Origin: Naegleria gruberi
Lineage: Eukaryota
Length of the DNA: 64,000 bases
Assembly (NCBI GenBank): GCA_000004985.1
Contig: GG738863.1
Direction: 5' to 3' (one strand)
In this document: positions 5,197-24,439 of the stretch, in pieces
How the letters are laid out: each line of letters starts with the position of its first letter
Numbering within the stretch: the stretch's first letter is position 1
Notes under the pieces: model-generated
Databases searched by the model: none
What the model saw: only the letters and a program-made list of their open reading frames with translations
What the model was told of the DNA's origin: nothing
Position numbers and translations under genes: made by a program

Positions 5197-5832
5197 ATGG
5201 GACAGAATAGTGCTTGTGAGCAAGATAGAGACTTTGCACAAGGTCAAATTTTTACACGTTTCGACAAGTATCACCAGAGAGAACAAGAACAGAAACGAGC
5301 TTTTGGTCAGCTTCGTCAGGTTTCTTCCACCAATGGTCTAGAATCAGCCAGTGCTCTCTCCAAGAAACAGAGAAAGAGCATTCACGGAACAAGATCCATC
5401 TCTAATCCTTCCTCTCCAGGTGGATCACAATCATATTCGAGTAGTTTTGGTTCTTCAACAGAGTACCAACATCATCATCCTGTAAATATCAGCATCACAC
5501 ATACAAATAATAATAATTTAGGAGAAGTATTTAATTCTCTGCCAAACATTGTTGGAGGAGGTGATTCACCTAATTCACTCTCTCCAGCAACTCCACAATC
5601 AGCATCAACTGCATCATCGAGGAGAAGAGGACACTCCTCAGCATCACCACAATCTAACTATTTTGTAAATAATAATCAAACTCAATTAATGATTAATCAG
5701 GACGTTATTGAAGTAAAGAAGAGAAATGATCAGGATTCTGATGATGAGGAAGAGGATCCAGCTATTCAGAGAAGATCAAGAAGAAAATCATTATCACTTT
5801 TTAAGAATGCTAAAAAAGTTGACATGTTTTAA
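5197..5832 (+). CDS. Hypothetical Ser-rich low-complexity protein with MG N-terminus
   Basis: 211-aa ORF with a true ATG at 5197. It has long S/N/Q-rich tracts and an acidic DSDDEEED block followed by a basic tail. No recognisable domain. Confidence 0.3.
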   Translation: MGQNSACEQDRDFAQGQIFTRFDKYHQREQEQKRAFGQLRQVSSTNGLESASALSKKQRKSIHGTRSISNPSSPGGSQSYSSSFGSSTEYQHHHPVNISITHTNNNNLGEVFNSLPNIVGGGDSPNSLSPATPQSASTASSRRRGHSSASPQSNYFVNNNQTQLMINQDVIEVKKRNDQDSDDEEEDPAIQRRSRRKSLSLFKNAKKVDMF

Positions 5833-5917: not shown

Positions 5918-6492
5918 ATGCTAAGATCAAACGATATTCGAAAATTAATTTCAAAACCCTCATTGAAAACTTCTCCATTTGTTGTGAGAGCAATTCTTTC
6001 AACTAATTCTGTTAGAAACCTTCAAACTAAGCTTCCTGTTCATACTGGCTTCTTTGATGATGTTGCTGGAACTTATAAAACATTGCAAAATCCTCCAAAC
6101 TTTGCAAAACAATTCAAATTAAGTATGAAACCATTCGAATTCAGACAAGGACAACCTTTCTGGTAAGTTTTTAAAAAACAACACTAATTATCAACACTCT
6201 TAAAAGGTTCTTTAACTTTGCAGGTGTTCTAATCACATCCTTCTCTATTGCCTTTGGTTTCATGTATTTAATGTACTTTATTGTTTGGTACTTTTATTCT
6301 AATCCTTTCGTTCAATCTCCATTCAATTTGTATAATCCTCATCCATTCTTGGAGATTAGAAATGGAAAAGATGCAGCCAAAACCTATGATCCATTGAGTA
6401 AATTCTATGTTTACTGGAGTCCAGCAAGAGGTGAAGATAAAAAGACCATGTTTTACAGAGAATTAAATTTGGCCAAGGATCATAGACTTTAA
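5918..6492 (+). CDS. Small single-pass membrane protein with a presequence-like N-terminus, possibly a mitochondrial inner-membrane subunit. Two exons.
   Basis: Model: ATG 5918; exon 1 5918..6162; intron 6163..6206 (44 nt, GTAAGT...AAAAG); exon 2 6207..6492. The join is in phase: TG + G gives W, then FFNFAGVLITSFSIAFGFMYLMYFIVWYF (a transmembrane helix), then a soluble tail. The N-terminus is rich in basic and hydroxylated residues and poor in acidic ones. Confidence 0.45.
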
Positions 6493-6653
6493 ATTATTAA
6501 AGAATTTATGATGATTACACAATTTCAGTCCAAAGTATTTGGGAATCAAGTTAGTTAGAGGTCGAGAAAAATTACATTGTAAACAAATTCAATAAAAACA
6601 AGATTAAAAAAATTTTATTTCAGTGTAGCTGATCCCAATAGGATCATGAGGTA

Positions 6654-9600
6654 TTATCTTGAATTAAGAGAACATGAGTAATATTTTCTGTGTGCTTTAC
6701 CAACAAGTAGTGATAATAGACTTTGAATTTCATGCCAATTATCAATGATTTTAGGATTATAGGATTTAACTAAAATAATATTTAAAGCCTTAATAAAGCC
6801 TCTATGATTTAAATTGAGAATTGAATTGTGTCTATCCCAAAAAGTGTCATGGGGACGAAGCTTACAGGATGCTCCTGTAAGATTCGTGAATTTAGTTAAG
6901 AAATATCTTCTAAAACATTCGGTTTCTTCACAGTAGTATATGAAATGTTCCAAATCCACTTCACATTCACAGTTATCACAATAAACTTGACGAAATTGTC
7001 TAATATGTGAGTCGGTCATGTTTCTCCAAATTGACAATTTGGTTTCAGTGTCAAATCTTTGATCCATATATTTCAAATTGATATTAGTGAGGGACTGACT
7101 TTGGTTAAAAGGTAAGTCAGATTTATCCTCAACAATATCTAAATATTCTTTTCTCTGGATATCTTTGATGTATTTTCTATAGTCAAAGATGATTGTTTTC
7201 TTATTAGTATTAATTAAAATCTTTTGGTTTTGGGATAATAGTTTGGTAATATCAATCATATTTTGTCCTTGTGCACCTTCTTTTGCTAATTTATCAACTA
7301 TAATATTCTCTGGATCTTCATGCCCTTTCACTTTAACTAGATGGATATTTAAATGTTTATCCTTAATGGTACCAAAGAATTCTTCTTGAAATCCTTGAAA
7401 GTCTCCTCTGTAACTCTTTTTTAAAACTTCAATAGCAACTTGACTATCAGTATGTACATTAGCATTGGAATGATTTGGCAGCATTTTGATTGCTGTTAAT
7501 ATAGCCATGATTTCAGCCACGTTATTGGAATATTCTTCATGAATCTTGAAGGAATATTTGAAACTTCTATTTTCTGAATTATATATATTAATTCCAAATC
7601 CCACTTGGTTTTCAATTTTTGATCCATCTGTGTGAATATTAAATGAATGACCCTCCATTTGATCCAAATTAATATCATTGTCAATATCATTACATTCCTT
7701 CAATTCGATATTATATCGTTTCATAGTTTGTAGAATACTATCAAAGATATTGCTAATTCTCTTCTTTTTACCAGCATGTTTGATCCCATCTTTAATTGCC
7801 TCTCTTACTAGAGGGTTTCTACTATTTGTTAAATATAAAATAGAGTTAATATTAATTCTTTGAATGAAATCATTACAGTTAGGAATACCCAATCCTCCAT
7901 ATTCAATAGGTAAATGGAACCAATGAGTGTGACTTCTTAAATCTAAATGAGCTCTTCTTCTAATACATTTCCTAATAGCAGTATCTATTTTATCACCTAA
8001 AGCTGCTGGTATGATATTACATCTAGATAAATGTGTGAATAAACTGATACATTTAGCATGTATCACTTTTCCAATATTTGGAATTTCCATTCTCATAATA
8101 GGCATATATTTCAGTGATAGTTGAAATTTAGCAATCTTATTCATAATGTCTTCTTTTACCATTTTATCATCCCATGGATAGTGACCAAGAACTCGTACAT
8201 TTTCTTCAAGTGGTATTTTGGTATCATTAATTTTTGGTTTCATTTTCTTAATTTTCTTAGTAGGGTTCGGTTTCTGTGTTGCAACTGATTTGGATGGATT
8301 GATCTTTAGTGATAATTTCCCAAGCCATCTATTTAGGTCTTTTAATCTTGAATTATAATTGCAATTTTTAGTCGCTGTTAAATTTAGGTCATCAGCAAAA
8401 CATAGAATTCCAATATCATCTGCTTTGAGTTTTTTAGGTTTTACGGGAATATCCCACTTGTCTATACATTTATCAATAATTAATTGAGTAATACAATCGT
8501 AAACCAGGGGAGCTAATGGACAACCTTGTGGGATGCCCCTGGTTTTGTGAATGGGTCTAGATAATGAGTTTCCTATCTCTAAGCTTAATAAATGGTCTTT
8601 GTACGAGTTGAGGATAAATTCAATTAATTCATTAGGGAATTTACAATGATGTAGAGCTAATTCAATTACCTTCAGTTCAACAGAATCATAAGCACCTTCT
8701 ATATCCAAGTTTACAATTAATAGAGGGTCTTTTTCTCTATTGGCTTTATGTGCTAAAGCTGATAATACTATTCCATGATTCATTGTACTTCTGTGTGAGA
8801 TAAATGCTTGTTGTCTAATATTTATGTTCCTACTAGCCCATCTTCTTAATTTAAAAGCAATAACATTGAATAATAATCGGTAATAAATTGGTAAGATGGT
8901 TATTGGGCGAATATCATTCAATTTCTTAACTTCTCGCTTAGGTACTAATTTTACCCACCCTTGTTTCCATTCTAAGGGAATATTTCTTGTTTGGAGACAT
9001 TCATTAAATTTTTCTACTAACAGCTTTAAATTATCATCTGATAGTTTCTTAATAATATTAAATGATATAAAATCTAGTCCAGGTGTGTTAGATTTCATTC
9101 TTTGAATAGCTTTCTTAACAGAATTCATAGTTATTTTGATTTTTGATGGGCCCTTTGAAATAGTAGATGGGGCACAATTAAATTGAATTGAATCGGTTTT
9201 AGATTGGAACTTTTGCTCAAAGTAGTCAATCAATTCCTCTTCTTCAAAATCAACTTGTTTCCAGTTAATTGACTTCTCCTTAATATGTCTATCAAATTGA
9301 TATATTAATGATGAATCGTATCGATTAAATGATTCAGAAATCTTTCTCTTAATTTCCTCTGCACATCTATGATAAAGGTCTTTAATTTCAGATCTAACTC
9401 TTTCTATTTGGTCTGTATCATTGTTCTCTGAATTAATGAGATCATTCAATTCCTCTTCTTTCGACTTAATCTCTTGTCTTAATTCTGATTCATTAGTTTT
9501 AATTCGAATTCTATCATTCTTTCTTAAATTTTCAATAATAAAGGATTTAATTTTGTTATCTAATTCATTAAAGCTATCAGGAACTTCTCTGTTAATAGAT

Positions 9601-10397
9601 TCAATAAATTTTTGAATCTTTGTTGGACTAATATATGGTCTCCATGTATCATTAGTCTCTAATTCAATATCAATATAGAATGGTTGATGATCATTCTTAG
9701 TTATTGATGGTAAAATCTTCTTATTTCTAATAATAATATTATTTGAAACGAATATATGATCAGGGTGAGTTTTAGTTGTACCATCTCTTGTTTTTCTAAT
9801 GTAGGTGTATTCATCAGGAGCTATAGATTCATAAAAATTGAAAGTATCAAAGAATTCACACCACATTCTATCTCTCATTGAAGTGGGATTAATGGTATTT
9901 ATATTCGGATCTCCCGATATAATGAAATATTCTCCTTGATGTGCACTTATATACTCTATCATGGTACTTAGTATTTTATCATCATATGATTCACTCTCCT
10001 CATCATTTCTAACACTTATATAGACTGTAAAGATATTAATTGGTTTTCCTCTTGTTTCAAACTTTGTTAATTGAAGTAATCCTGGAATAAGATTGGTATT
10101 ACATAACAATCTTTTCCTTCGGTTGTTAATAAAATGTAGCAATGCAGTGCCTTTACAAGCTTTTCTGGTTCCCATTAATGAATTAAAAAAGAAATGTCCT
10201 CTTCCTGATTCGAAAGCCCTTTGTTGATCTTCTAATTTGTTAATGTGAGTTTCGGTAATGCTTATAATTTGAATATTATGTTGGTGACAAATTCCCTTAA
10301 TAGCATGAGTTAGGATCTCTTTAGTTTCTGTTTTAATAAGACCATTCACATTAAAACATCCCACTCGGAAATTGCATTTTGGATTAATCATTGGCAT
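6654..10397 (-). CDS. LINE ORF2 polyprotein: N-terminal apurinic-like endonuclease, reverse transcriptase, RNase H and a C-terminal Cys/His motif
   Basis: 1247 aa. Endonuclease/exonuclease/phosphatase-like N-terminus (CFNVNGL...SITETHI...GDPNIN). RT motifs PITILPIYYRLLFNVIA, LDIEGAYDSV, GIPQGCPLAPLVY and LCFADDLNL. RNase H motifs NIHTDGSK...AEIMAILTAI...HTDSQVAI. Then CDNCECEVDLEHFIYYCEETECF. No internal stops. Confidence 0.85.
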   Translation of the reverse strand: MPMINPKCNFRVGCFNVNGLIKTETKEILTHAIKGICHQHNIQIISITETHINKLEDQQRAFESGRGHFFFNSLMGTRKACKGTALLHFINNRRKRLLCNTNLIPGLLQLTKFETRGKPINIFTVYISVRNDEESESYDDKILSTMIEYISAHQGEYFIISGDPNINTINPTSMRDRMWCEFFDTFNFYESIAPDEYTYIRKTRDGTTKTHPDHIFVSNNIIIRNKKILPSITKNDHQPFYIDIELETNDTWRPYISPTKIQKFIESINREVPDSFNELDNKIKSFIIENLRKNDRIRIKTNESELRQEIKSKEEELNDLINSENNDTDQIERVRSEIKDLYHRCAEEIKRKISESFNRYDSSLIYQFDRHIKEKSINWKQVDFEEEELIDYFEQKFQSKTDSIQFNCAPSTISKGPSKIKITMNSVKKAIQRMKSNTPGLDFISFNIIKKLSDDNLKLLVEKFNECLQTRNIPLEWKQGWVKLVPKREVKKLNDIRPITILPIYYRLLFNVIAFKLRRWASRNINIRQQAFISHRSTMNHGIVLSALAHKANREKDPLLIVNLDIEGAYDSVELKVIELALHHCKFPNELIEFILNSYKDHLLSLEIGNSLSRPIHKTRGIPQGCPLAPLVYDCITQLIIDKCIDKWDIPVKPKKLKADDIGILCFADDLNLTATKNCNYNSRLKDLNRWLGKLSLKINPSKSVATQKPNPTKKIKKMKPKINDTKIPLEENVRVLGHYPWDDKMVKEDIMNKIAKFQLSLKYMPIMRMEIPNIGKVIHAKCISLFTHLSRCNIIPAALGDKIDTAIRKCIRRRAHLDLRSHTHWFHLPIEYGGLGIPNCNDFIQRININSILYLTNSRNPLVREAIKDGIKHAGKKKRISNIFDSILQTMKRYNIELKECNDIDNDINLDQMEGHSFNIHTDGSKIENQVGFGINIYNSENRSFKYSFKIHEEYSNNVAEIMAILTAIKMLPNHSNANVHTDSQVAIEVLKKSYRGDFQGFQEEFFGTIKDKHLNIHLVKVKGHEDPENIIVDKLAKEGAQGQNMIDITKLLSQNQKILINTNKKTIIFDYRKYIKDIQRKEYLDIVEDKSDLPFNQSQSLTNINLKYMDQRFDTETKLSIWRNMTDSHIRQFRQVYCDNCECEVDLEHFIYYCEETECFRRYFLTKFTNLTGASCKLRPHDTFWDRHNSILNLNHRGFIKALNIILVKSYNPKIIDNWHEIQSLLSLLVGKAHRKYYSCSLNSR

Positions 10398-11367
10398 GAT
10401 ATTTTAGTTGTGGTTCATCCTCATCATCTATATCATCATGCTTTCTTCTTACTTGAGGATTTGGAGCCATTCTAACATCTCTAATTTCTTCATCTTCTAC
10501 CATCTTCTCTAACATGTTATCAATATGATTTCCAATCAGTTCTAATTCTTGGTTATCAATAATATTATTTGGTTGGTTTTGTAACCATATTGGAATTTTA
10601 TCCATTAAATTTTTGAATTCTTTTTCTGTGTTTTTAACAACTACATTAATTTCATTGAATTGTTCTTGTAATTTAGTATAATTCATTTCCAATAAATCAA
10701 GTCTTTCCATAATTCTATCTAATTTGCTGTCATTATTAATTGAGGTACTATCAGGTTGTTTGTTCACTTTATATTTCTTTGTAAGATATTCAGCAGTGGA
10801 TACAAATTGAATAAAGTGCATGATACCAATAGGATCTCTCTTTGGAAAAACCACTTTAGTAAATCTATAAACTTCATCGTCAGATTGTAATCTAATATTA
10901 ATAATATAATTATTATTTAATAGTTTACTAATTTTAATATTTTCTTTTTTAATAGTAATATTAGATCTTTGTTCAATTGTTTTAATTGATTCAGACACTT
11001 GTTCCTCTGTGAAGTTCTTACTCATAACAATAGATACATCTAAGGAGCTTTCATTAATAATTTCTTCAATTTTACGATAGGTTTCAAACTTATTTTGAAT
11101 TAAATAATTAATTTTAGTGTTTGTTAGGAGAGAAACTCTCAACTTGTATTGTGAAATAGATTTGTTTGAGTCATAGTTTAAACTAACATTAATTTGATCA
11201 ATATCAATATCATTAGAATTAATAATTAATCTATATTTTTCCATAAATTCTTTTTGATTCTTGGTATAGTATTTTACAGCATGTTCAGTAGCATTAAAAT
11301 TCATAGGGGAAGCAAAGTATTTAGCAGGTGCTTCCTTAATAACTTCTTGATTAGTAAGTATTTTCAT
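10384..11367 (-). CDS. LINE ORF1 (coiled-coil nucleic-acid chaperone-type ORF1p)
   Basis: 327 aa with a true ATG at 11367-11365 and an in-frame TAA about 40 nt upstream. The C-terminal part has a predicted coiled coil (LDRIMERLDLLEMNYTKLQEQFNEINVVVKNTEKEF). It terminates inside the ORF2 start (...HAND*). Confidence 0.65.
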   Translation of the reverse strand: MKILTNQEVIKEAPAKYFASPMNFNATEHAVKYYTKNQKEFMEKYRLIINSNDIDIDQINVSLNYDSNKSISQYKLRVSLLTNTKINYLIQNKFETYRKIEEIINESSLDVSIVMSKNFTEEQVSESIKTIEQRSNITIKKENIKISKLLNNNYIINIRLQSDDEVYRFTKVVFPKRDPIGIMHFIQFVSTAEYLTKKYKVNKQPDSTSINNDSKLDRIMERLDLLEMNYTKLQEQFNEINVVVKNTEKEFKNLMDKIPIWLQNQPNNIIDNQELELIGNHIDNMLEKMVEDEEIRDVRMAPNPQVRRKHDDIDDEDEPQLKYHAND

Positions 11368-11422
11368 AGCTTTGATAAAGTTATCTCTATTATTAATAGC
11401 TAATTGAAATATAAATTCTTAT

Positions 11423-11848
11423 TTACAGGGATGTAATAATAATCACATAGATGTTTACCTTACTGAGGAAAAATTCAGCAATAGTCTCAGTAATGTTGGT
11501 TTGACAATAGATAGAAATGCTAGTGCTATAATCAATAGTCTTTTGTCTCTTGTGTGACATTTTAAGATTTTCTTTTTGTTTAAGATTTCCATTCCGTTTG
11601 TTTTCGTTTAAATTAGATTCGGAAATATTTTTAGCAACCACCTTAATTTTCGGAATTTTCTCTTCACTTGCTGGAGCTTTGGCAACTTCCACATAGGTAG
11701 GTTTAATTACTTCCGAGTTATTTTTAGTCTCATTGGGGGGCTTTATCATCGGAAGCATGTTTTCAATAATAGACTTATACGTATTGATCATTACAGTCTG
11801 CCGCTTTATTAGGTCGACAAGCGAAACAGGTTGGAGGTGTAGACTCAT
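11423..11848 (-). CDS. Uncertain upstream ORF (about 142 aa from the first ATG) at the 5' end of the LINE. It may be an ORF0 or N-terminal extension of the element, or it may be spurious.
   Basis: The track start at 11866 is TTG; the first ATG is at 11848-11846. The sequence is basic and K/N-rich (KRNGNLKQKENLKMSHKRQK). It would fuse in phase to ORF1 if a 64-nt GTAAGG...TTAG segment (11404..11467) were removed. Confidence 0.2.
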   Translation of the reverse strand: MSLHLQPVSLVDLIKRQTVMINTYKSIIENMLPMIKPPNETKNNSEVIKPTYVEVAKAPASEEKIPKIKVVAKNISESNLNENKRNGNLKQKENLKMSHKRQKTIDYSTSISIYCQTNITETIAEFFLSKVNIYVIIITSL

Positions 11849-11876
11849 TTTTTTTGAACTCAACAAGATTAAAAAA

Positions 11877-12983
11877 ATGCCTCCACCAAGCCCTCCACCC
11901 TCTCAACCCATCAATATTTATTCATCATCCTCATCTAATACACCTACTACTCATGGATTATCGACAACAATTCAAATATCAAAATCGTATTCACCTCCGA
12001 GATATTTTATGAATAGAGTGATCAGTCCTACAACACCCAATATAAATAATAATAATACTTCGGGAAGTGGATTAACGTTCAATCCTTCATTTATGAATCC
12101 TCCGATAATTGATGAAAATCAAAATGAATTTTTGGAATTAATTGAAGCTGAAACCTATGTTGATATTGAAAGATTAAGAGATATGTCTAGACATGGCATT
12201 CCTGATGATTTGAGAGCTTCAGTGTGGAAATATCTTCTTGGTGTTAACCCAGGTGACAAGGCAGAACAAATGAAAAGAGAACATATTTATTTTCAATCTG
12301 TGAAACAACAACAATTACAAAATAATTCTTCATTGGGATTATTCTACTACTCAAAGAGACAAAATATTATTTTATCAGTGGTGCAACAATCACTAAATCA
12401 GTCAAAAATCAAACACTACACCATTGAAGAGTTATTATATCTTTTGAGGCCTTTTGAATCTGTTTATATGAGCGACCCAATACAACCAAATGATGGAAAG
12501 GATTTGGAAAAGAATATTCACGATATGTATAGATGTTTTGAAGTTTTCCTTCAGAAGAATTATTTCAAAGAAAGTCTTTCCTATCAAGTTGCCAAATTGA
12601 TTACTCTTTTCAAATGTACACAACCAGACTTGTATCAATATTTTGTCAATGAAGAAGTAGAACCAAATGAATGGTGCCTTCCATGGATAAAATACTTGTT
12701 ATCGAAACAATTACCTTTGGATTGTGTTAGAAGACTTTGGGATACCTATTTTTCCACAAACGATTTTGATTTACATATTTACGTTTGTCTGGCAATATTA
12801 CAATACTACAATGAAACTCTTATGGAATTGGAATATAGTGAAATCAAATACTTTTTGAATAACATTTATACTATTGATAAGTCGACAGAAGATGGAGAAA
12901 ATAGTTTGATAAGAATTATTCCACACATTCTTAAACAAGCATATAATTTTAGAGCTTATGTGAAATCAAGGCAGTTAATTTAA
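11877..12983 (+). CDS. TBC-domain Rab GTPase-activating protein
   Basis: The real ATG is at 11877 (MPPPSPPPSQ...); the tracked start at 11733 is not ATG. The TBC signature IPDDLRASVWKYLLGV (arginine finger) is followed by a typical TBC helical core through YxQ-like regions. Single exon. Confidence 0.75.
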   Translation: MPPPSPPPSQPINIYSSSSSNTPTTHGLSTTIQISKSYSPPRYFMNRVISPTTPNINNNNTSGSGLTFNPSFMNPPIIDENQNEFLELIEAETYVDIERLRDMSRHGIPDDLRASVWKYLLGVNPGDKAEQMKREHIYFQSVKQQQLQNNSSLGLFYYSKRQNIILSVVQQSLNQSKIKHYTIEELLYLLRPFESVYMSDPIQPNDGKDLEKNIHDMYRCFEVFLQKNYFKESLSYQVAKLITLFKCTQPDLYQYFVNEEVEPNEWCLPWIKYLLSKQLPLDCVRRLWDTYFSTNDFDLHIYVCLAILQYYNETLMELEYSEIKYFLNNIYTIDKSTEDGENSLIRIIPHILKQAYNFRAYVKSRQLI

Positions 12984-21874: not shown

Positions 21875-24439
21875 ATGTACAATACCCAACAACAATCTTC
21901 CCCGCAACAACCAAGACTTTCATCAAAGGTTGAATTGCACATTTCATGCAGAGGATTGAAGAATGTGAGTTGTTTATGTGAAGATTTGCAATTTAATAAT
22001 TATTCGTTAATTTGTGATGATTTTGTTGATTTTATTAAATGATCATCTAATGATGATTTTATTAAATAAGATGGATTTACTTTCAAAGTCAGATCCAAAG
22101 GTTTTAGTTTATGCAGGATTTCCTCCGAATAATCCACAATACGTAAGTAAATAATTAGAAATTTCTAGAAATATTATTGGAAAGGCTTGGAAATTATTGG
22201 GCGAAACTGAATGCATCAAGGATAATTTAAATCCAAACTTTTCAACTACTTTTACAGTTGAATATTGTTTTGAAGAACTTCAACACTTGAAATTCTGTGT
22301 CTATGATATTGATAATAATACTGCCACATTATCGGATGATGATTTTATTGGAGAGACAACTACAACACTAGGTGAGTATTGAAATCTTAAGAGTTTAGAT
22401 ACCAATTTATTGAATTAAAATACAGGTGAAATTTGTGGAGCTAAAGGACAAAAATTAATTAAACATCTCTATGCCAAGGGTTCAAAGGTTTCAAGAGGTA
22501 CCATCATTGTAACTGCCGAGGAAGTTAATTCAAATGCCACTGATGATGTGGAAATTGCCTTGGCAGGTGTTACACTTCCAAAGGTATGTGTTAAATAATT
22601 TCACAGAAACTTATTCTACAATTTATTATTTAATCTTACAATAGATGGATTTTTTTGGAAAGGCAGATCCAGTACGTAATTAGTTATTAGCAGATTTATC
22701 TAACATTTGTCAAGTTTTATGTTGTACAAAAAGCATCTGAAAGTGGTCAATTCCTTTCAGTTTATCAATCTGAAACCATCATGAATAATTTAAATCCAAT
22801 TTGGAAGCCAATGCGAATTTCTTGTGCCAAATTGTGTAATGGAGATTATCATAGAAGTTTGAAAATTTCTGTATACGATTGGAATAAGCACTCTGCTCCA
22901 GATTTTATCGGAGAGGTTGAAACTAATTTGGATGCTCTTCTTAAGGCTAGTGTTTCTCTTAAACTACAAAATCCAGCAAAGAAAAAGGGAAATCATGGCG
23001 ATCTTATTGTCAAGTCCTCCAAGATTACTAAAAATCCAACCTTCTTGGAATTTTTGGCAGGTGGAATGAAAATGAACATGTTGGTTGCAGTTGACTTTAC
23101 TGCTTCAAATGGTCAACCAGAATTACCTCAATCTTTGCACTACAATAGACAAGGACAAATGAACCAATACGAACAAGCTATTAGATCTGTTGGACAAATT
23201 ATTTCTGACTATGATAGCGACAAATTGTTCCCATCTTTTGGTTATGGAGGATATTTACCAAATGGTATTACATCACACTGCTTTGCTTTGAATGGTAATC
23301 CACAAAAACCAGAATGTTTTCAAGTTGACGGAATTCTTCAAAGTTATAGACAAGCACTGTATACCGTAAAACTTTCAGGACCAACTCATTTTGCTCAAAT
23401 TATCAAAACAGCCTGTCAATATGCTTCTGTTCCAATAAGTCAATCAAACCAAGAATATTTTGTCTTGCTCATTTGTACTGATGGTATGATTAATGATATG
23501 CAGGAAACTATTGATCAAATAATTGAAGGATCAGGACTCCCACTTTCAATTATTATTGTTGGTGTTGGTGCAGCTGATTTCAGCTCTATGGAAACACTGG
23601 ATGGCGATAATGCTGCCCTCAGATCTGGCCGTACTGGAAGAACAGCTCTTCGTGATATTGTCCAATTTGTACCATTTAACAAATTTGCATCAATGCCATT
23701 TACTGCTCTCAGTAAGGAAGTTCTTGCTGAAATTCCAACCCAAGTAACTCAATTCATGAAAATGAAAAATTTAATGCCAAACCAAAGAGTAGTTATTCAG
23801 GAATATGTTCCACCTGAACCAAGCACTCCATCCACCACAACTACTCAAATGTATCCAAGCAATGATCCACCAAGAGAAAGAAGTATGTCAGAAAGTTTCA
23901 ATCCAAATACTTCCAATTCCAATCTTAATTCCATTCCAAACCAAGTTCCACAACAAGGTATTCCACAACAACAAGTTCCACCAACTTATGGAGTTCCTCC
24001 TCAACAAGGTGGTTATCCACAACAGGGTTATCCTCAACAACCAACTGGTCAACCTCAACAATATCCTCAACAACAAGGTGGTTATCCAATGCAACCTCAA
24101 CAATTTGGTGGATATCCTCAACAGCCTGTTGGTGGACAACCTCAACAATTTGGTCAACAAGTTCCACCTCAACAATATGGCCAAATCCCTCCTCAACAAT
24201 ACAGTCAAGTCCCTCCACAACAAGGTTACCCACAACAAGGTGGATATCCACAACAGGGTTATCCTCAACAACCAACTGGTCAACCTCAACAATTTGGTCA
24301 ACAAGTCCCTCCACAACAATATGGCCAAATCCCTCCTCAACAATACAGTCAAGTCCCTCCACAACAAGGCTATCCTCAACAAGTCCCACGTAATCCTCAA
24401 CAACCTGAAAATCCAACCATCCCTCAATACAAAATTTAA
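21875..24439 (+). CDS. Copine (two C2 domains plus a vWA domain) with a long P/Q/G/Y-rich C-terminal tail. Six exons.
   Basis: Exons: 21875..21964 (MYNTQQQ...[12 protein letters not shown]), 22071..22142 ([14 protein letters not shown]...), 22185..22371 ([20 protein letters not shown]...FCVYDIDN...), 22426..22583 (...[10 protein letters not shown]...), 22645..22671 (MDFFGKADP) and 22715..24439 ([13 protein letters not shown]...NNLNPIWKP...; vWA region [10 protein letters not shown]...LICTDG...[10 protein letters not shown]). Introns are 42-106 nt with GTGAGT/GTAAGT/GTATGT/GTACGT donors, and all junctions are in phase. Each junction matches the conserved copine order (SKSDP, SWAELGRTE-like, NNLNPxW). 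Confidence 0.8.
24137..24424 (+). repeat. Tandem duplication of a 144-nt (48-aa) coding unit in the copine tail, embedded in shorter GYPQQ-type repeats
   Basis: Copy 1 is 24137..24280 and copy 2 starts at 24281. Both encode [34 protein letters not shown](G)... with only a few substitutions. The antisense ORFs 23888..24427 and 23925..24416 are by-products of this repeat. Confidence 0.7.

What the first reader, a model, noticed from the sequence alone, without database searches (positions are those of the whole stretch)
6500..11870. Full-length, apparently intact non-LTR retrotransposon (ORF1 plus APE-RT-RNaseH ORF2) with a 14-nt ORF1/ORF2 overlap
ORF2 (1247 aa) has no stop codons and retains all catalytic signatures: an AP-endonuclease-like N-terminus, RT blocks including FADD, RNase H, and a C-terminal CxxC...H...C motif. 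ORF1 (327 aa) ends inside the ORF2 start (ATGCCAATGATTAA), the arrangement used for termination-reinitiation or frameshift coupling in LINEs. Intactness suggests a recently active element. The APE + RT + RNase H + Cys-motif domain order narrows the clade to I/Tad/L1-like groups, but not further by eye.
Basis: seen in the sequence. Interest (0 to 1): 0.6.

Follow-up and report, generated by a model that had tools for sequence, protein, structure and literature searches.

The report
Naegleria LINE that inserts at start codons
This is a genuine, recently inserted LINE retrotransposon in the amoeba Naegleria gruberi, with an intact reverse-transcriptase gene but a broken first gene; it belongs to a little-studied amoebal lineage whose copies all sit exactly at the ATG start codon of a host gene.

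Summary
ORF2 (6654-10397, minus strand, 1247 aa) is open and carries AP-endonuclease, RT (FADD), RNase H and CCHC motifs. A 327-aa ORF overlaps it by 14 nt (ATGCCAATGATTAA).

The window is Naegleria gruberi NEG-M. A perfect 17-bp target-site duplication (6597-6613 and 11862-11878) bounds a 5,248-bp element (6614-11861). The element has a 13-nt 5' UTR and a 40-nt 3' UTR ending in AATAAA, with no poly(A).

"Intact" is only partly right. In four relatives ORF1 is one reading frame across this site, leaving aside unrelated breaks elsewhere in two N. fowleri elements.

Two near-identical protein fragments (99.3% and 97.7% identity) point to further copies. The lineage is confined to Heterolobosea and its clade is unplaced. 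It is not L1-like in RT sequence, tail or target.

Unexpectedly, all seven insertions I could examine abut a host gene's ATG head-to-head (N. gruberi, N. fowleri, Willaertia). The duplication begins at the AT of that ATG, implying a nick at 5'-A(6-9)T^G-3'. I found no published description of this.

The parts
11862..11878 (-). 5' copy of the target-site duplication. It reads ATTTTTTTAATCTTGTT in element sense, which on the + strand is AACAAGATTAAAAAAAT and includes the AT of the host ATG.
6597..6613 (-). 3' copy of the target-site duplication, identical to the 5' copy at 17 of 17 positions.
6614..11861 (-). The whole retrotransposon, 5,248 bp. It starts GAGTTCAAAAAAAATG and ends ...CACTGAAATAAA.
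11849..11861 (-). 13-nt 5' UTR, GAGTTC followed by A7. The N. fowleri relative has a UTR of the same length, so the 5' end is complete.
11423..11848 (-). ORF1a, 141 aa plus stop. This is the N-terminal part of the ancestral ORF1, and its start context (CA8TG) is conserved in relatives.
11419..11425 (-). 7-nt TAAATAA that breaks ORF1, supplying a stop in each of the two frames. Deleting it restores a 485-aa ORF colinear with four relatives.
10384..11367 (-). The homologous frame is already open from 11418, and the initiator Met is an internal residue in relatives. The C-terminal half looks like coiled coil followed by an acidic tail.
10384..10397 (-). ORF1b/ORF2 overlap, ATGCCAATGATTAA. The ORF2 AUG lies 11 nt before the ORF1 UAA.
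6654..10397 (-). ORF2, 1247 aa, intact.
9660..10370 (-). AP-endonuclease domain, aa 10-246, with all catalytic motifs present.
8256..8942 (-). Reverse-transcriptase domain, aa 486-714. FADD is encoded at 8388-8399.
7272..7643 (-). RNase H domain, aa 919-1042. D924, E962, D984 and D1035 are invariant in the family.
6930..6980 (-). C-terminal CCHC motif, CDNCECEVDLEHFIYYC, aa 1140-1156.
6614..6653 (-). 40-nt 3' UTR. It contains a 7-bp hairpin (6630-6646) and a terminal AATAAA (6614-6619), with no poly(A) and no microsatellite tail.
11877..12983 (+). First exon or ORF of the host RabGAP-TBC gene. Its ATG (11877-11879) is the insertion point. It is head-to-head with the element, 29 nt from the ORF1 ATG.

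Best explanation
Window 6614-11861 (minus strand) is one insertion of an AP-endonuclease-type LINE in the nuclear genome of Naegleria gruberi NEG-M.

Shown directly:
- A perfect 17-bp target-site duplication bounds the element.
- It has a 13-nt 5' UTR.
- Its ORF1 is split by a 7-nt TAAATAA into ORF1a (141 aa) and ORF1b (327 aa).
- Its ORF2 (1247 aa) is intact, with the order APE, linker, RT, RNase H, CCHC.
- Its 40-nt 3' UTR carries a hairpin and ends in AATAAA without poly(A).
- It belongs to a lineage found only in Heterolobosea (Naegleria and Willaertia). This lineage is multi-copy and young in N. fowleri.
- In all seven insertions examined, the element lies head-to-head against the ATG of a host protein-coding gene. 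The duplication starts with the AT of that ATG plus its A-run leader.

Inferred from TPRT geometry:
- The endonuclease nicks the host gene's sense strand at 5'-A(6-9)T^G-3'.
- The ...AAAAAAAT-3'OH end primes cDNA synthesis at a defined 3' end of the RNA.
- Priming is probably helped by a read-through A-U(n) segment copied from the previous target and by recognition of the 3' hairpin. That would explain why there is no poly(A).
- The second nick falls 13-17 nt (possibly up to 19 in the Willaertia copy) upstream. The host ATG and a short leader are therefore regenerated.
- ORF2 is most likely translated by termination-reinitiation at the ORF1 stop.
- Transcription must come from an initiator or internal promoter, because only 13 nt precede ORF1.

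This particular copy is recent. Because the ORF1 break cuts through a conserved domain, it is probably not autonomous.
For: Identity and limits:
- Flanking genes are exact matches to N. gruberi proteins EFC45352-45360, and ORF1b equals EFC45461.1.
- The 17-mer duplication is the only 17-mer in the window repeated 4-7 kb apart. Only 1 of 20 shuffles produced any such repeat.
- The N. fowleri relative L002 has the same build: a 13-nt UTR and a 17-bp duplication.

Protein machinery:
- Pfam finds RT and RNase H.
- The APE profile hits an L1-EN variant at 6e-14, with catalytic motifs aligned.
- Family-invariant residues include the RNase H acidic residues and the CCHC motif.
- The AlphaFold2 model has pLDDT 79.5. 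Its best PDB matches are full-length human LINE-1 ORF2p in TPRT or elongation complexes (E 6e-34, TM 0.57), followed by R2.

ORF1 break:
- L001, N. fowleri A, N. fowleri B and Willaertia are all continuous across the site.
- Both sides of the break align to them. Deleting TAAATAA gives a 485-aa ORF.

Transposon rather than host gene:
- P0029 is 99.3% identical over 412 aa, and P0037 is 97.7% identical over 214 aa.
- The sister family in N. fowleri has 14 annotated proteins on 11 contigs. Three sampled copies differ at about 2-4% of aligned positions, indels included.
- One 5'-truncated copy still carries a target-site duplication.
- LINEs make up 1.85% of the N. fowleri genome.

Target:
- Seven of seven junctions read A(6-9)T^G at an annotated host start codon, in three species and three element families.
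- The reconstructed empty site in the window is a 126-nt intergenic spacer. ATG 11877 is the first ATG after an in-frame stop, and the host ORF is a RabGAP-TBC protein.
- The A6TG motif is rare, with 21 occurrences in the rest of the window on both strands. Fifteen of these start ORFs of at least 100 aa.

ORF coupling: the ORF2 AUG is adjacent to the ORF1 stop in all relatives.
Against: - Only seven insertions could be examined. Four of them are one N. fowleri family, taken from a nanopore-based assembly.
- The N. gruberi genome itself could not be searched. Copy number and target rule for this exact family in this species therefore rest on one junction and two protein fragments of unknown provenance.
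- The nick position, U-run annealing, reinitiation and promoter statements are inferences, not measurements.
- An interrupted ORF1 may be tolerated in this lineage. Two of three N. fowleri family-B copies share an in-frame TGA in ORF1, which weakens "not autonomous".
- The 3' hairpins are individually only marginal, with z from -1.4 to -3.5.
- The RT clade is unresolved.
Confidence: 0.8

Rival explanations
1. The copy is a fully autonomous, active element with a genuine three-ORF layout. ORF1a and ORF1b would be made as separate proteins, or joined by an unconventional recoding event, so the TAAATAA is not a defect.
For: ORF2 is intact and the duplication is perfect. Nearly identical sequence exists elsewhere. 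ORF1b has its own AUG 56 nt after the ORF1a stop. In the N. fowleri sister family, two of three copies carry a shared in-frame TGA within ORF1. Interrupted ORF1s may therefore propagate in this lineage.
Against: The break lies inside a domain conserved in four relatives that read straight through it. The two frames have adjacent stops (CTG TAA A TAA GAA), so a single frameshift cannot join them. The position differs from the family-B TGA. The Met of ORF1b is an internal, non-conserved residue in relatives.
Confidence: 0.15
2. The association with start codons is not endonuclease specificity. On this view insertion is roughly random or merely AT-biased, and only copies landing just upstream of an ATG survive selection. 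Alternatively, gene callers simply start the host model at the first ATG after the element.
For: Naegleria genomes are compact, so most other positions would disrupt genes. Host starts in N. fowleri and Willaertia come from automatic annotation.
Against: The junction is nucleotide-precise (AT^G after at least 6 A) in seven of seven cases, whereas the other end of the duplication varies from 13 to 19 nt. Selection would allow any position in the spacer. The motif occurs only about 21 times per 64 kb on both strands. A-runs flank the 3' end in two further partial copies. In the window the reconstructed empty site is a normal 126-nt intergenic spacer, with no upstream ATG.
Confidence: 0.06
3. The element is an L1-clade member that works like L1. 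It would nick at TTTT/AA, prime on a poly(A) tail, and carry a type II ORF1p.
For: The best whole-chain structural match is human L1 ORF2p. The APE profile's best PDB hit is an L1-EN variant. The C-terminal CCHC motif resembles that of L1 and Tx1.
Against: There is no poly(A). The target polarity is opposite, with the A-run on the nicked strand. An RNase H domain is present. The RT profile scores R2 at 1e-30 against L1 ORF2p at 5e-13. The PDB holds no I, Tad or Jockey-type ORF2, so the L1 structural hit only says "APE-type LINE".
Confidence: 0.04
4. ORF2 is a domesticated host gene, an RT-RNase H protein kept by selection, rather than a transposon.
For: ORF2 is long and intact, and its codon usage is host-like. 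RSCU correlation is r = 0.89, against 0.87-0.94 between host genes. No second copy lies in the window.
Against: The locus has a perfect target-site duplication and a broken ORF1. Near-identical fragments exist elsewhere. Related families are multi-copy and include a 5'-truncated member. ORF2 is not even annotated as a gene in the N. gruberi annotation. The relative in N. fowleri sits at a different locus, not an orthologous one.
Confidence: 0.02

Closest known systems
RNase H-bearing APE LINEs of the "I group" (I factor, Tad1, LOA, Nimb, ingi/L1Tc)
   Same: ORF2 has the same order, APE, RT, then a canonical RNase H1-type domain downstream of RT. There is no poly(A) tail and the 3' end is precise. 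A relative (Willaertia) has a short tandem-repeat tail, (CTTTAAA)n, reminiscent of the (TAA)n tail of I. The 5' UTR is very short, which implies an internal promoter as in I and jockey-type elements (own knowledge). Among the nearest full-length hits outside the family, 13 of 35 carry RNase H, a mixed picture.
   Different: ORF1 has no CCHC zinc knuckles. The CCHC motif lies after RNase H at the ORF2 C-terminus. Sequence identity to any non-heterolobosean element is 26% or less. Nearest neighbours are a mixture that includes R2-like RTs. Clade membership was not testable because no labelled references were available.
Human LINE-1 ORF2p and the L1 mechanism
   Same: The model has the overall ORF2p architecture, and human L1 ORF2p is its best structural match. 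It is an APE-type nickase with all catalytic motifs. The element has target-site duplications of 13-19 bp, 5' truncation in a relative, and two ORFs that are probably translationally coupled.
   Different: It has an RNase H domain and no poly(A). The nick site is A(n)T^G rather than TTTT/AA, so the primer end is A-rich rather than T-rich. The RT sequence is closer to R2 than to L1.
Target-specific LINEs (R1/R2 in 28S rDNA, TRAS/SART in telomeric repeats, Tx1L, NeSL/SLACS/CZAR in spliced-leader genes, Dictyostelium TRE5/TRE3 near tRNA genes)
   Same: The insertion point is nucleotide-precise and orientation-specific, and is reused by independent copies. There is no poly(A). The 3' end is probably defined by annealing of read-through target sequence, as described for R1 and R2 (own knowledge). 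Like TRE elements, this is a compact-genome protist host.
   Different: The target is not a repeated RNA gene or a repeat. It is a short motif that in Naegleria coincides with the translation start of perhaps a third to a half of protein-coding genes (a rough estimate). There are no tRNA genes anywhere in the window. I found no description of such a target.
Termination-reinitiation coupling of LINE ORFs (for example SART1, human L1; own knowledge)
   Same: The ORF2 AUG lies within 0-20 nt of the ORF1 stop in every member: 14-nt overlap, ATGA, 11-nt overlap, or 20-nt spacer.
   Different: This was not tested. No conserved downstream RNA structure or slippery site was identified.

Membership tests
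Non-LTR retrotransposon (APE-type LINE) | ORF encoding an N-terminal AP-like endonuclease with catalytic residues, followed by an RT with the YxDD/FADD motif | tested here: met
Non-LTR retrotransposon (APE-type LINE) | Flanking target-site duplication of variable length, with no LTRs or TIRs | tested here: met
   The element has a 17-bp perfect duplication. No long direct or inverted repeats lie at its ends. Relatives have duplications of 13-19 bp.
Non-LTR retrotransposon (APE-type LINE) | Multiple dispersed copies, including 5'-truncated ones | tested here: inconclusive
   For this exact family there are only two near-identical protein fragments of unknown locus. The sister family in N. fowleri meets the criterion, with 11 contigs and one 5'-truncated copy carrying a duplication. 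The N. gruberi genome was not searchable.
L1 clade | 3' poly(A) tail and a TTTT/AA-type nick site | tested here: not met
L1 clade | RT groups with L1/Tx1 reverse transcriptases | tested here: inconclusive
   The family profile scores R2 at 1e-30 and L1 ORF2p at 5e-13. Only 2 of 35 nearest hits carry zf-RVT. This leans against L1, but no labelled phylogeny was possible.
I group (I, Tad1, LOA, Nimb, Ingi) | RNase H domain downstream of RT in ORF2 | tested here: met
I group (I, Tad1, LOA, Nimb, Ingi) | RT falls inside one of these clades in an RT phylogeny (RTclass1/Repbase) | not testable with these tools
   No labelled reference sequences were available. The nearest neighbours are unnamed environmental and arthropod proteins.
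I / LOA / R1 / Jockey-type ORF1 | CCHC zinc knuckles in ORF1p | tested here: not met
   The repaired 485-aa ORF1 has a single Cys and no Pfam match.
Target-specific LINE | Independent copies at the same sequence, the same nucleotide and the same orientation | tested here: met
   Seven of seven junctions lie at A(6-9)T^G, head-to-head with a host gene. The sample is small.
tRNA-gene-targeted TRE-like elements | Insertion at a fixed distance from a tRNA gene | tested here: not met
   There is no tRNA gene in the 64-kb window.

The most novel reading that the evidence does not exclude
Heterolobosean LINEs may use the start codons of ordinary protein-coding genes as a dedicated landing site. The endonuclease would cut inside the ATG (AT^G) after the A-rich leader. 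The duplication would rebuild the start codon. The element's 5' end, only 29 nt from the host ATG in divergent orientation, would then work with the host gene's 5' region as a shared or bidirectional promoter. The host gene would stay expressed although 5 kb now separates it from its old upstream DNA, and the new copy would be transcribed. That would be a "safe haven" strategy at Pol II gene starts, of a kind not described for any LINE.
Probability: 0.2. Interest if true: 0.8.

Novelty: new variant of a known kind. Interest (0 to 1): 0.6.

Why it matters
As first described, an intact LINE in a protist genome is ordinary. The value lies in what the junctions show. The lineage has single-nucleotide target precision at A-run+ATG, which in Naegleria is the translation-start context of a large share of genes.

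- It would add a new class of target to the short list of site-specific LINEs.
- It would provide a natural APE-type nickase with a long, simple recognition motif, of interest for retargetable TPRT tools.
- It poses a testable question in a compact genome. How do genes such as TELO2, Trm112 or a RabGAP stay expressed after 5 kb is placed between them and their upstream region?
- It matters for annotation too. ORF2 is unannotated here, ORF1b is filed as a "predicted protein", and a chimeric LINE-host protein model exists.

Tried and rejected
- **tRNA targeting, as in Dictyostelium TRE.** There is no tRNA gene in the window.
- **Other copies in the window.** None were found by DNA repeats or by tblastn with family proteins.
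- **An intron joining ORF1a and ORF1b.** I considered GTAAAC...TACTAAT..AG. I rejected it because the interval is colinear with relatives (79 nt here against 78 nt in L001) and both sides align through it.
- **Locating N. gruberi copies.** Exact look-ups of ORF2, ORF1 and the N. gruberi paralogue P0004 found nothing, because that genome is not in the position index.
- **Metagenome scans.** Two scans, one with a protein profile and one with a degenerate KTRGIPQGCPLAP pattern, found nothing.
- **ORF1 homology and fold.** The word-index search returned only the query itself. Pfam found nothing. Single-sequence AlphaFold2 gave pLDDT 36, which is unusable.
- **Codon usage as a test for domestication.** It does not discriminate.
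- **Clade placement from nearest neighbours.** The neighbours are unnamed and of mixed architecture.
- **In-frame antisense extension of the host ORF into the element.** It is present here, with 60 open codons, but not in other loci, so it is chance.
- **Rfam and tandem repeats in the element.** There was only one sub-threshold chance hit and no 3' tail.
- **Literature.** Nine full-text searches found no description of Naegleria LINE structure or target. The N. gruberi genome paper is not held.

Full report
**1. The observation**

On the minus strand there is an ATG-to-stop ORF of 1247 aa (6654..10397). A 327-aa ORF (10384..11367) has a stop that lies 11 nt after the ORF2 ATG, giving the 14-nt overlap ATGCCAATGATTAA. 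None of 2000 shuffles of ORF2 is stop-free, and its other two frames carry 91 and 196 stops.

Pfam finds RVT_1 (aa 486-714, E 3e-28) and RNase_H (aa 919-1042, E 1e-13). For the endonuclease it finds only a weak Exo_endo_phos_2 match (E 0.02). A profile of the N-termini of the family and its nearest relatives nevertheless matches an L1 endonuclease variant, 2v0r, at 6e-14 over the whole domain. The NxNG, (T/Q)E, GDxN, DH and (N/S)DH motifs are aligned and all present in this copy. FADD (aa 667-670), the RNase H acidic residues (D924, E962, D984, D1035) and C1140-x2-C-x7-H-x4-C1156 are invariant in the family alignment.

**2. Where it comes from**

Six flanking ORFs are exact matches to database proteins. 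Five of them are Naegleria gruberi proteins (EFC45352, 45356, 45357, 45359, 45360) on a 467,654-bp scaffold. The 327-aa ORF is itself annotated as "predicted protein" EFC45461.1 (NAEGRDRAFT_66659). ORF2 is not annotated. G+C content is 29-30% in the element against 31-38% elsewhere in the window. The sense strand is A-rich (40-44% A), and codon usage is host-like.

**3. Limits of the element**

Read in element sense, the 5' flank is ...GGAGGC|ATTTTTTTAATCTTGTT|GAGTTCAAAAAAAATGAGT. The 3' end is ...CACTGAAATAAA|ATTTTTTTAATCTTGTT|TTTATTG. This 17-mer (11862-11878 and 6597-6613) is the only 17-mer in the 64-kb window that recurs at a spacing of 4-7 kb. Only one of 20 shuffled windows produced any such repeat.

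The element is thus 5,248 bp (6614-11861). It has a 13-nt 5' UTR and a 40-nt 3' UTR that ends in AATAAA. It has no poly(A) and no microsatellite tail. A relative in N. fowleri (L002) also has a 13-nt UTR of the form NNNNNC-A7 before the ATG, and a perfect 17-bp duplication. The 5' end is therefore complete.

**4. ORF1 is not intact**

Upstream of the 327-aa ORF lies a 141-aa ORF (ATG 11848, stop 11423-11425) in another frame. Four related elements were compared: a Logan contig of unknown organism (L001), N. fowleri family A (L002), N. fowleri family B (consensus of L005-L007) and Willaertia magna (L009). In each of them the corresponding sequence is one reading frame across this site, giving an ORF1 of 444-614 aa as reconstructed. 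The two N. fowleri elements have breaks elsewhere in ORF1. L002 has a frameshift near nt 8550 that I bridged for the alignment, and the family-B consensus has an in-frame TGA at codon 150.

The window sequence aligns to the relatives on both sides of the break. One example is ...ISIYCQTNITETIAEFFLSK... and ...FQLAINNRDNFIKAMKILTNQ..KYFASPMNFNATEHAVKYYT, against N. fowleri ...VSIYLSKHIDSDITEFITDAVKEKL...LQLVCNNHEDYVSTLGILNSQ..KYVVTPMNFSPAEHTLKYHT. The interval is 79 nt here against 78 nt in L001, so it is not an intron.

The two frames are closed by adjacent stops (CTG TAA A TAA GAA). Removing the 7 nt TAAATAA (11419-11425) restores a 485-aa ORF. The "initiator" Met of the 327-aa ORF is an internal, non-conserved position in relatives. 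The simplest reading is that one 7-nt insertion broke ORF1 inside a conserved domain, so this copy is probably not autonomous.

One caveat applies. Two of three N. fowleri family-B copies share an in-frame TGA elsewhere in ORF1, and the third has lost it through a 3-nt deletion. Interrupted ORF1s may therefore be tolerated in this lineage.

ORF1 has no Pfam match and no zinc knuckle. A single-sequence AlphaFold2 model was useless at pLDDT 36, hinting only at a beta-alpha-beta-beta-alpha unit and a long C-terminal helix.

**5. ORF2 as a machine**

An AlphaFold2 model of aa 1-1200, built with 21 aligned sequences, reaches pLDDT 79.5 and pTM 0.69. Its best PDB matches are full-length human LINE-1 ORF2p in elongation and TPRT complexes (E 6e-34, TM 0.57/0.54). 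R2 proteins, group II intron reverse transcriptases and AP endonucleases follow.

By sequence the picture differs. The family profile scores R2 reverse transcriptases at 1e-30 and L1 ORF2p at only 5e-13. With the single sequence, L1 ORF2p is not found at E up to 1. The PDB has no I, Tad or Jockey-type ORF2, so these results say "APE-type LINE, not close to L1" and no more.

**6. Relatives and copy number**

The word-index searches found only five relatives at 40-54% identity, with everything else at 26% or less. These five are N. fowleri FDP41_004384, an N. gruberi paralogue P0004, one Logan contig and two ENA contigs. Two JGI metagenome scans were empty.

The exhaustive HMMER search with an RT-RNase H-C-terminus profile found 85 cluster representatives at E 1e-30 or better. 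Among them:
- P0029 is 99.3% identical to ORF2 aa 836-1247. It differs at two residues, apart from a TTG codon called as Met.
- P0037 is 97.7% identical to aa 964-1177 and is fused to unrelated sequence. These two indicate further copies of this same family, although I could not look up where they come from.
- P0028 heads a 90% cluster of 14 N. fowleri proteins on 11 contigs. Three sampled copies differ at about 2-4% of aligned positions, indels included.
- P0041 is from Willaertia magna.

Nearest hits outside Heterolobosea are unnamed environmental proteins and arthropod proteins. Of 35 full-length ones, 13 have RNase H, 11 have Exo_endo_phos, 9 have Exo_endo_phos_2 and 2 have zf-RVT. The lineage is an RNase H-bearing APE LINE whose clade I could not name. 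LINEs are reported to make up 1.85% of the N. fowleri genome (PMC6831594) and 0.25% of the N. lovaniensis genome (PMC6125883). Neither paper describes them further.

**7. The target site**

This is the unexpected result. In the window the duplication on the + strand reads AACAAGATTAAAAAAAT and is followed by G. Its last two bases are the AT of ATG 11877-11879, which opens a RabGAP-TBC ORF (Pfam 6e-17). Removing the element and one duplication copy leaves a 126-nt spacer after the stop of the upstream gene. In that spacer this ATG is the first one after an in-frame TAG.

The same geometry holds at every other junction I could obtain. Each element is head-to-head with the host gene.

| Element | Locus | Host gene | Junction (host sense) | Duplication |
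|---|---|---|---|---|
| N. gruberi A | window | RabGAP-TBC | AACAAGATTAAAAAAAT^G | 17 bp |
| N. fowleri A | L002 | TELO2-like | TAATATCAAAAAAAAAT^G | 17 bp |
| N. fowleri B | L005 | Img2 | CATCCTCCTAAAAAAT^G | 16 bp |
| N. fowleri B | L006 | 205-aa protein | GAACAACAAAAAAAAT^G | 16 bp |
| N. fowleri B | L007 | Trm112 | CAACAAGACGAAAAAAT^G | 3' end deleted, so not measurable |
| N. fowleri B, 5'-truncated copy | L008 | 1923-aa protein | GCATGAAAAAAAT^G | 13 bp |
| Willaertia magna | L009 | glycosyl hydrolase 47 | ...TTACAAAAAAAT^G | 14-19 bp, boundary blurred by a (CTTTAAA)n tail |

Two partial copies (L001, L003) also have A+T(7-8) directly after their 3' ends.

The ATG-side boundary is constant, whereas the other boundary varies from 13 to 19 nt. 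In target-primed reverse transcription the invariant boundary at the element's 3' end is the first nick. I therefore infer a nick on the host gene's sense strand at 5'-A(6-9)T^G-3'.

The motif A6TG occurs 21 times in the rest of the window on both strands. Fifteen of these open ORFs of at least 100 aa. A motif-specific nickase would thus land on start codons about 70% of the time or more. "Start-codon targeting" therefore follows from the A-rich start context of Naegleria genes. Whether it is also adaptive is open. The element's own ORF1 start (C-A7-ATG) is itself such a motif.

**8. How it most likely works**

The 3' end is precise and lacks poly(A). The AATAAA signal sits 0-14 nt from the end, so transcripts should run into the flanking A-U(n) copied from the previous target. 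A nicked ...AAAAAAAT-3' end is exactly complementary to that segment. Family B even carries an internal ATTTTTTCA before its duplication. I therefore propose priming by annealing of read-through RNA to the target, as is known for R1 and R2 (own knowledge).

Family A 3' UTRs each form a 6-7-bp hairpin with different stem sequences (z -2.1, -3.5 and -1.4). This is suggestive of RT recognition but weak.

ORF2 has its own AUG next to the ORF1 stop in all members (14-nt overlap, ATGA, 11-nt overlap, 20-nt spacer). This fits termination-reinitiation, and there is no sign of frameshifting.

With only 13 nt before ORF1, the promoter must be an initiator or lie internally. The first 430 nt are compositionally distinct (G+C 0.34 against 0.255).

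How the host gene remains expressed is unknown. It now lies 5.2 kb from its former upstream DNA and 29 nt from a divergent ORF1.

**9. Comparison and novelty**

The element works like an APE-type LINE. Its domain order resembles the I, Tad1, LOA and ingi group. It fails L1 criteria on tail, target and RT similarity, and it lacks the ORF1 zinc knuckles of I and LOA. Its precision resembles R1, R2, TRAS or Tx1, but the target is a short motif at Pol II gene starts rather than a repeated gene. There is no tRNA gene in the window, so it is not TRE-like. Nine full-text searches found no description of Naegleria LINE anatomy or target choice. Repbase may hold consensus sequences that I cannot see. 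I rate it a new variant of a known kind.

**10. Verdict**

It is a young LINE with an intact ORF2. ORF1 is broken and the element is not L1-like.
- The added finding of AT^G start-codon insertion in seven of seven copies across three species is the part worth following up.
- It rests on a small sample and needs a genome-wide junction survey.

Noticed in passing
window 11846-11855 (minus strand): The element's own ORF1 start context, C-A7-ATG, is itself a perfect copy of the inferred target motif A(n)TG. Head-to-head nested insertions of the family into its own copies would therefore be expected.
   Followed up: no
L006 about 2842-2844 and L007 about 2843-2845 (family-B consensus nt 456-458): N. 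fowleri family B has an in-frame TGA after ORF1 codon 149 in two of three copies. The third copy (L005) has a precise 3-nt deletion that removes it. This could be readthrough, a defective master copy, or an assembly issue.
   Followed up: partly
L009 8167-8207: The Willaertia magna relative ends in about six copies of CTTTAAA after AATAAA. The Naegleria elements have no tail.
   Followed up: partly
window 6630-6646; L002 about 12944-12958; L001 about 5240-5255: A short hairpin lies 9-16 nt upstream of the terminal AATAAA in three family-A 3' UTRs. The stems differ in sequence (TGATCC/GGATCA, AGCACC/GGTGCT, GAATCT/AGATTC). Each is only marginally better than shuffles.
   Followed up: partly
window 11423-11848 versus 10384-11367: The first 430 nt of the element (ORF1a) have G+C 0.34 and GC3 0.37. 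ORF1b has 0.255 and 0.18. This might reflect an internal promoter or a different origin.
   Followed up: no
window 11733-11879 (+ strand): The host RabGAP-TBC reading frame stays open for 60 codons upstream of its ATG, running into the antisense of the element's 5' end. An in-frame ATG lies 40 codons upstream. This is not seen consistently at the other six loci, so it is probably chance.
   Followed up: yes
protein P0037 (720 aa; locus unknown): This chimeric predicted protein has 214 residues that are 97.7% identical to ORF2 aa 964-1177, followed by about 500 residues of unrelated sequence. It is probably a truncated copy fused to a host gene by gene modelling.
   Followed up: partly
window 6654-10397: The intact 1247-aa ORF2 is absent from the N. 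gruberi protein set, while ORF1b is annotated as an ordinary "predicted protein" (EFC45461.1). This is an annotation gap.
   Followed up: yes
window 23947-24383: Imperfect tandem repeats encode a Pro/Gln/Gly/Tyr-rich low-complexity stretch (PQQGGYPQQ...) inside ORF 22781-24439.
   Followed up: no
window 5918-6485 (+ strand): The upstream neighbour appears to be a two-exon gene, with a GTAAGT...CAG intron at about 6167-6245, ending at TAG 6483-6485. Exon 1 has no Pfam match.
   Followed up: no
L002 about 8550, 9800-9827 and 11662-11674: The N. fowleri family-A copy has frame changes in ORF1 and ORF2 despite a perfect 17-bp duplication. The assembly is nanopore-based, so these may be homopolymer errors rather than real decay.
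   Followed up: partly
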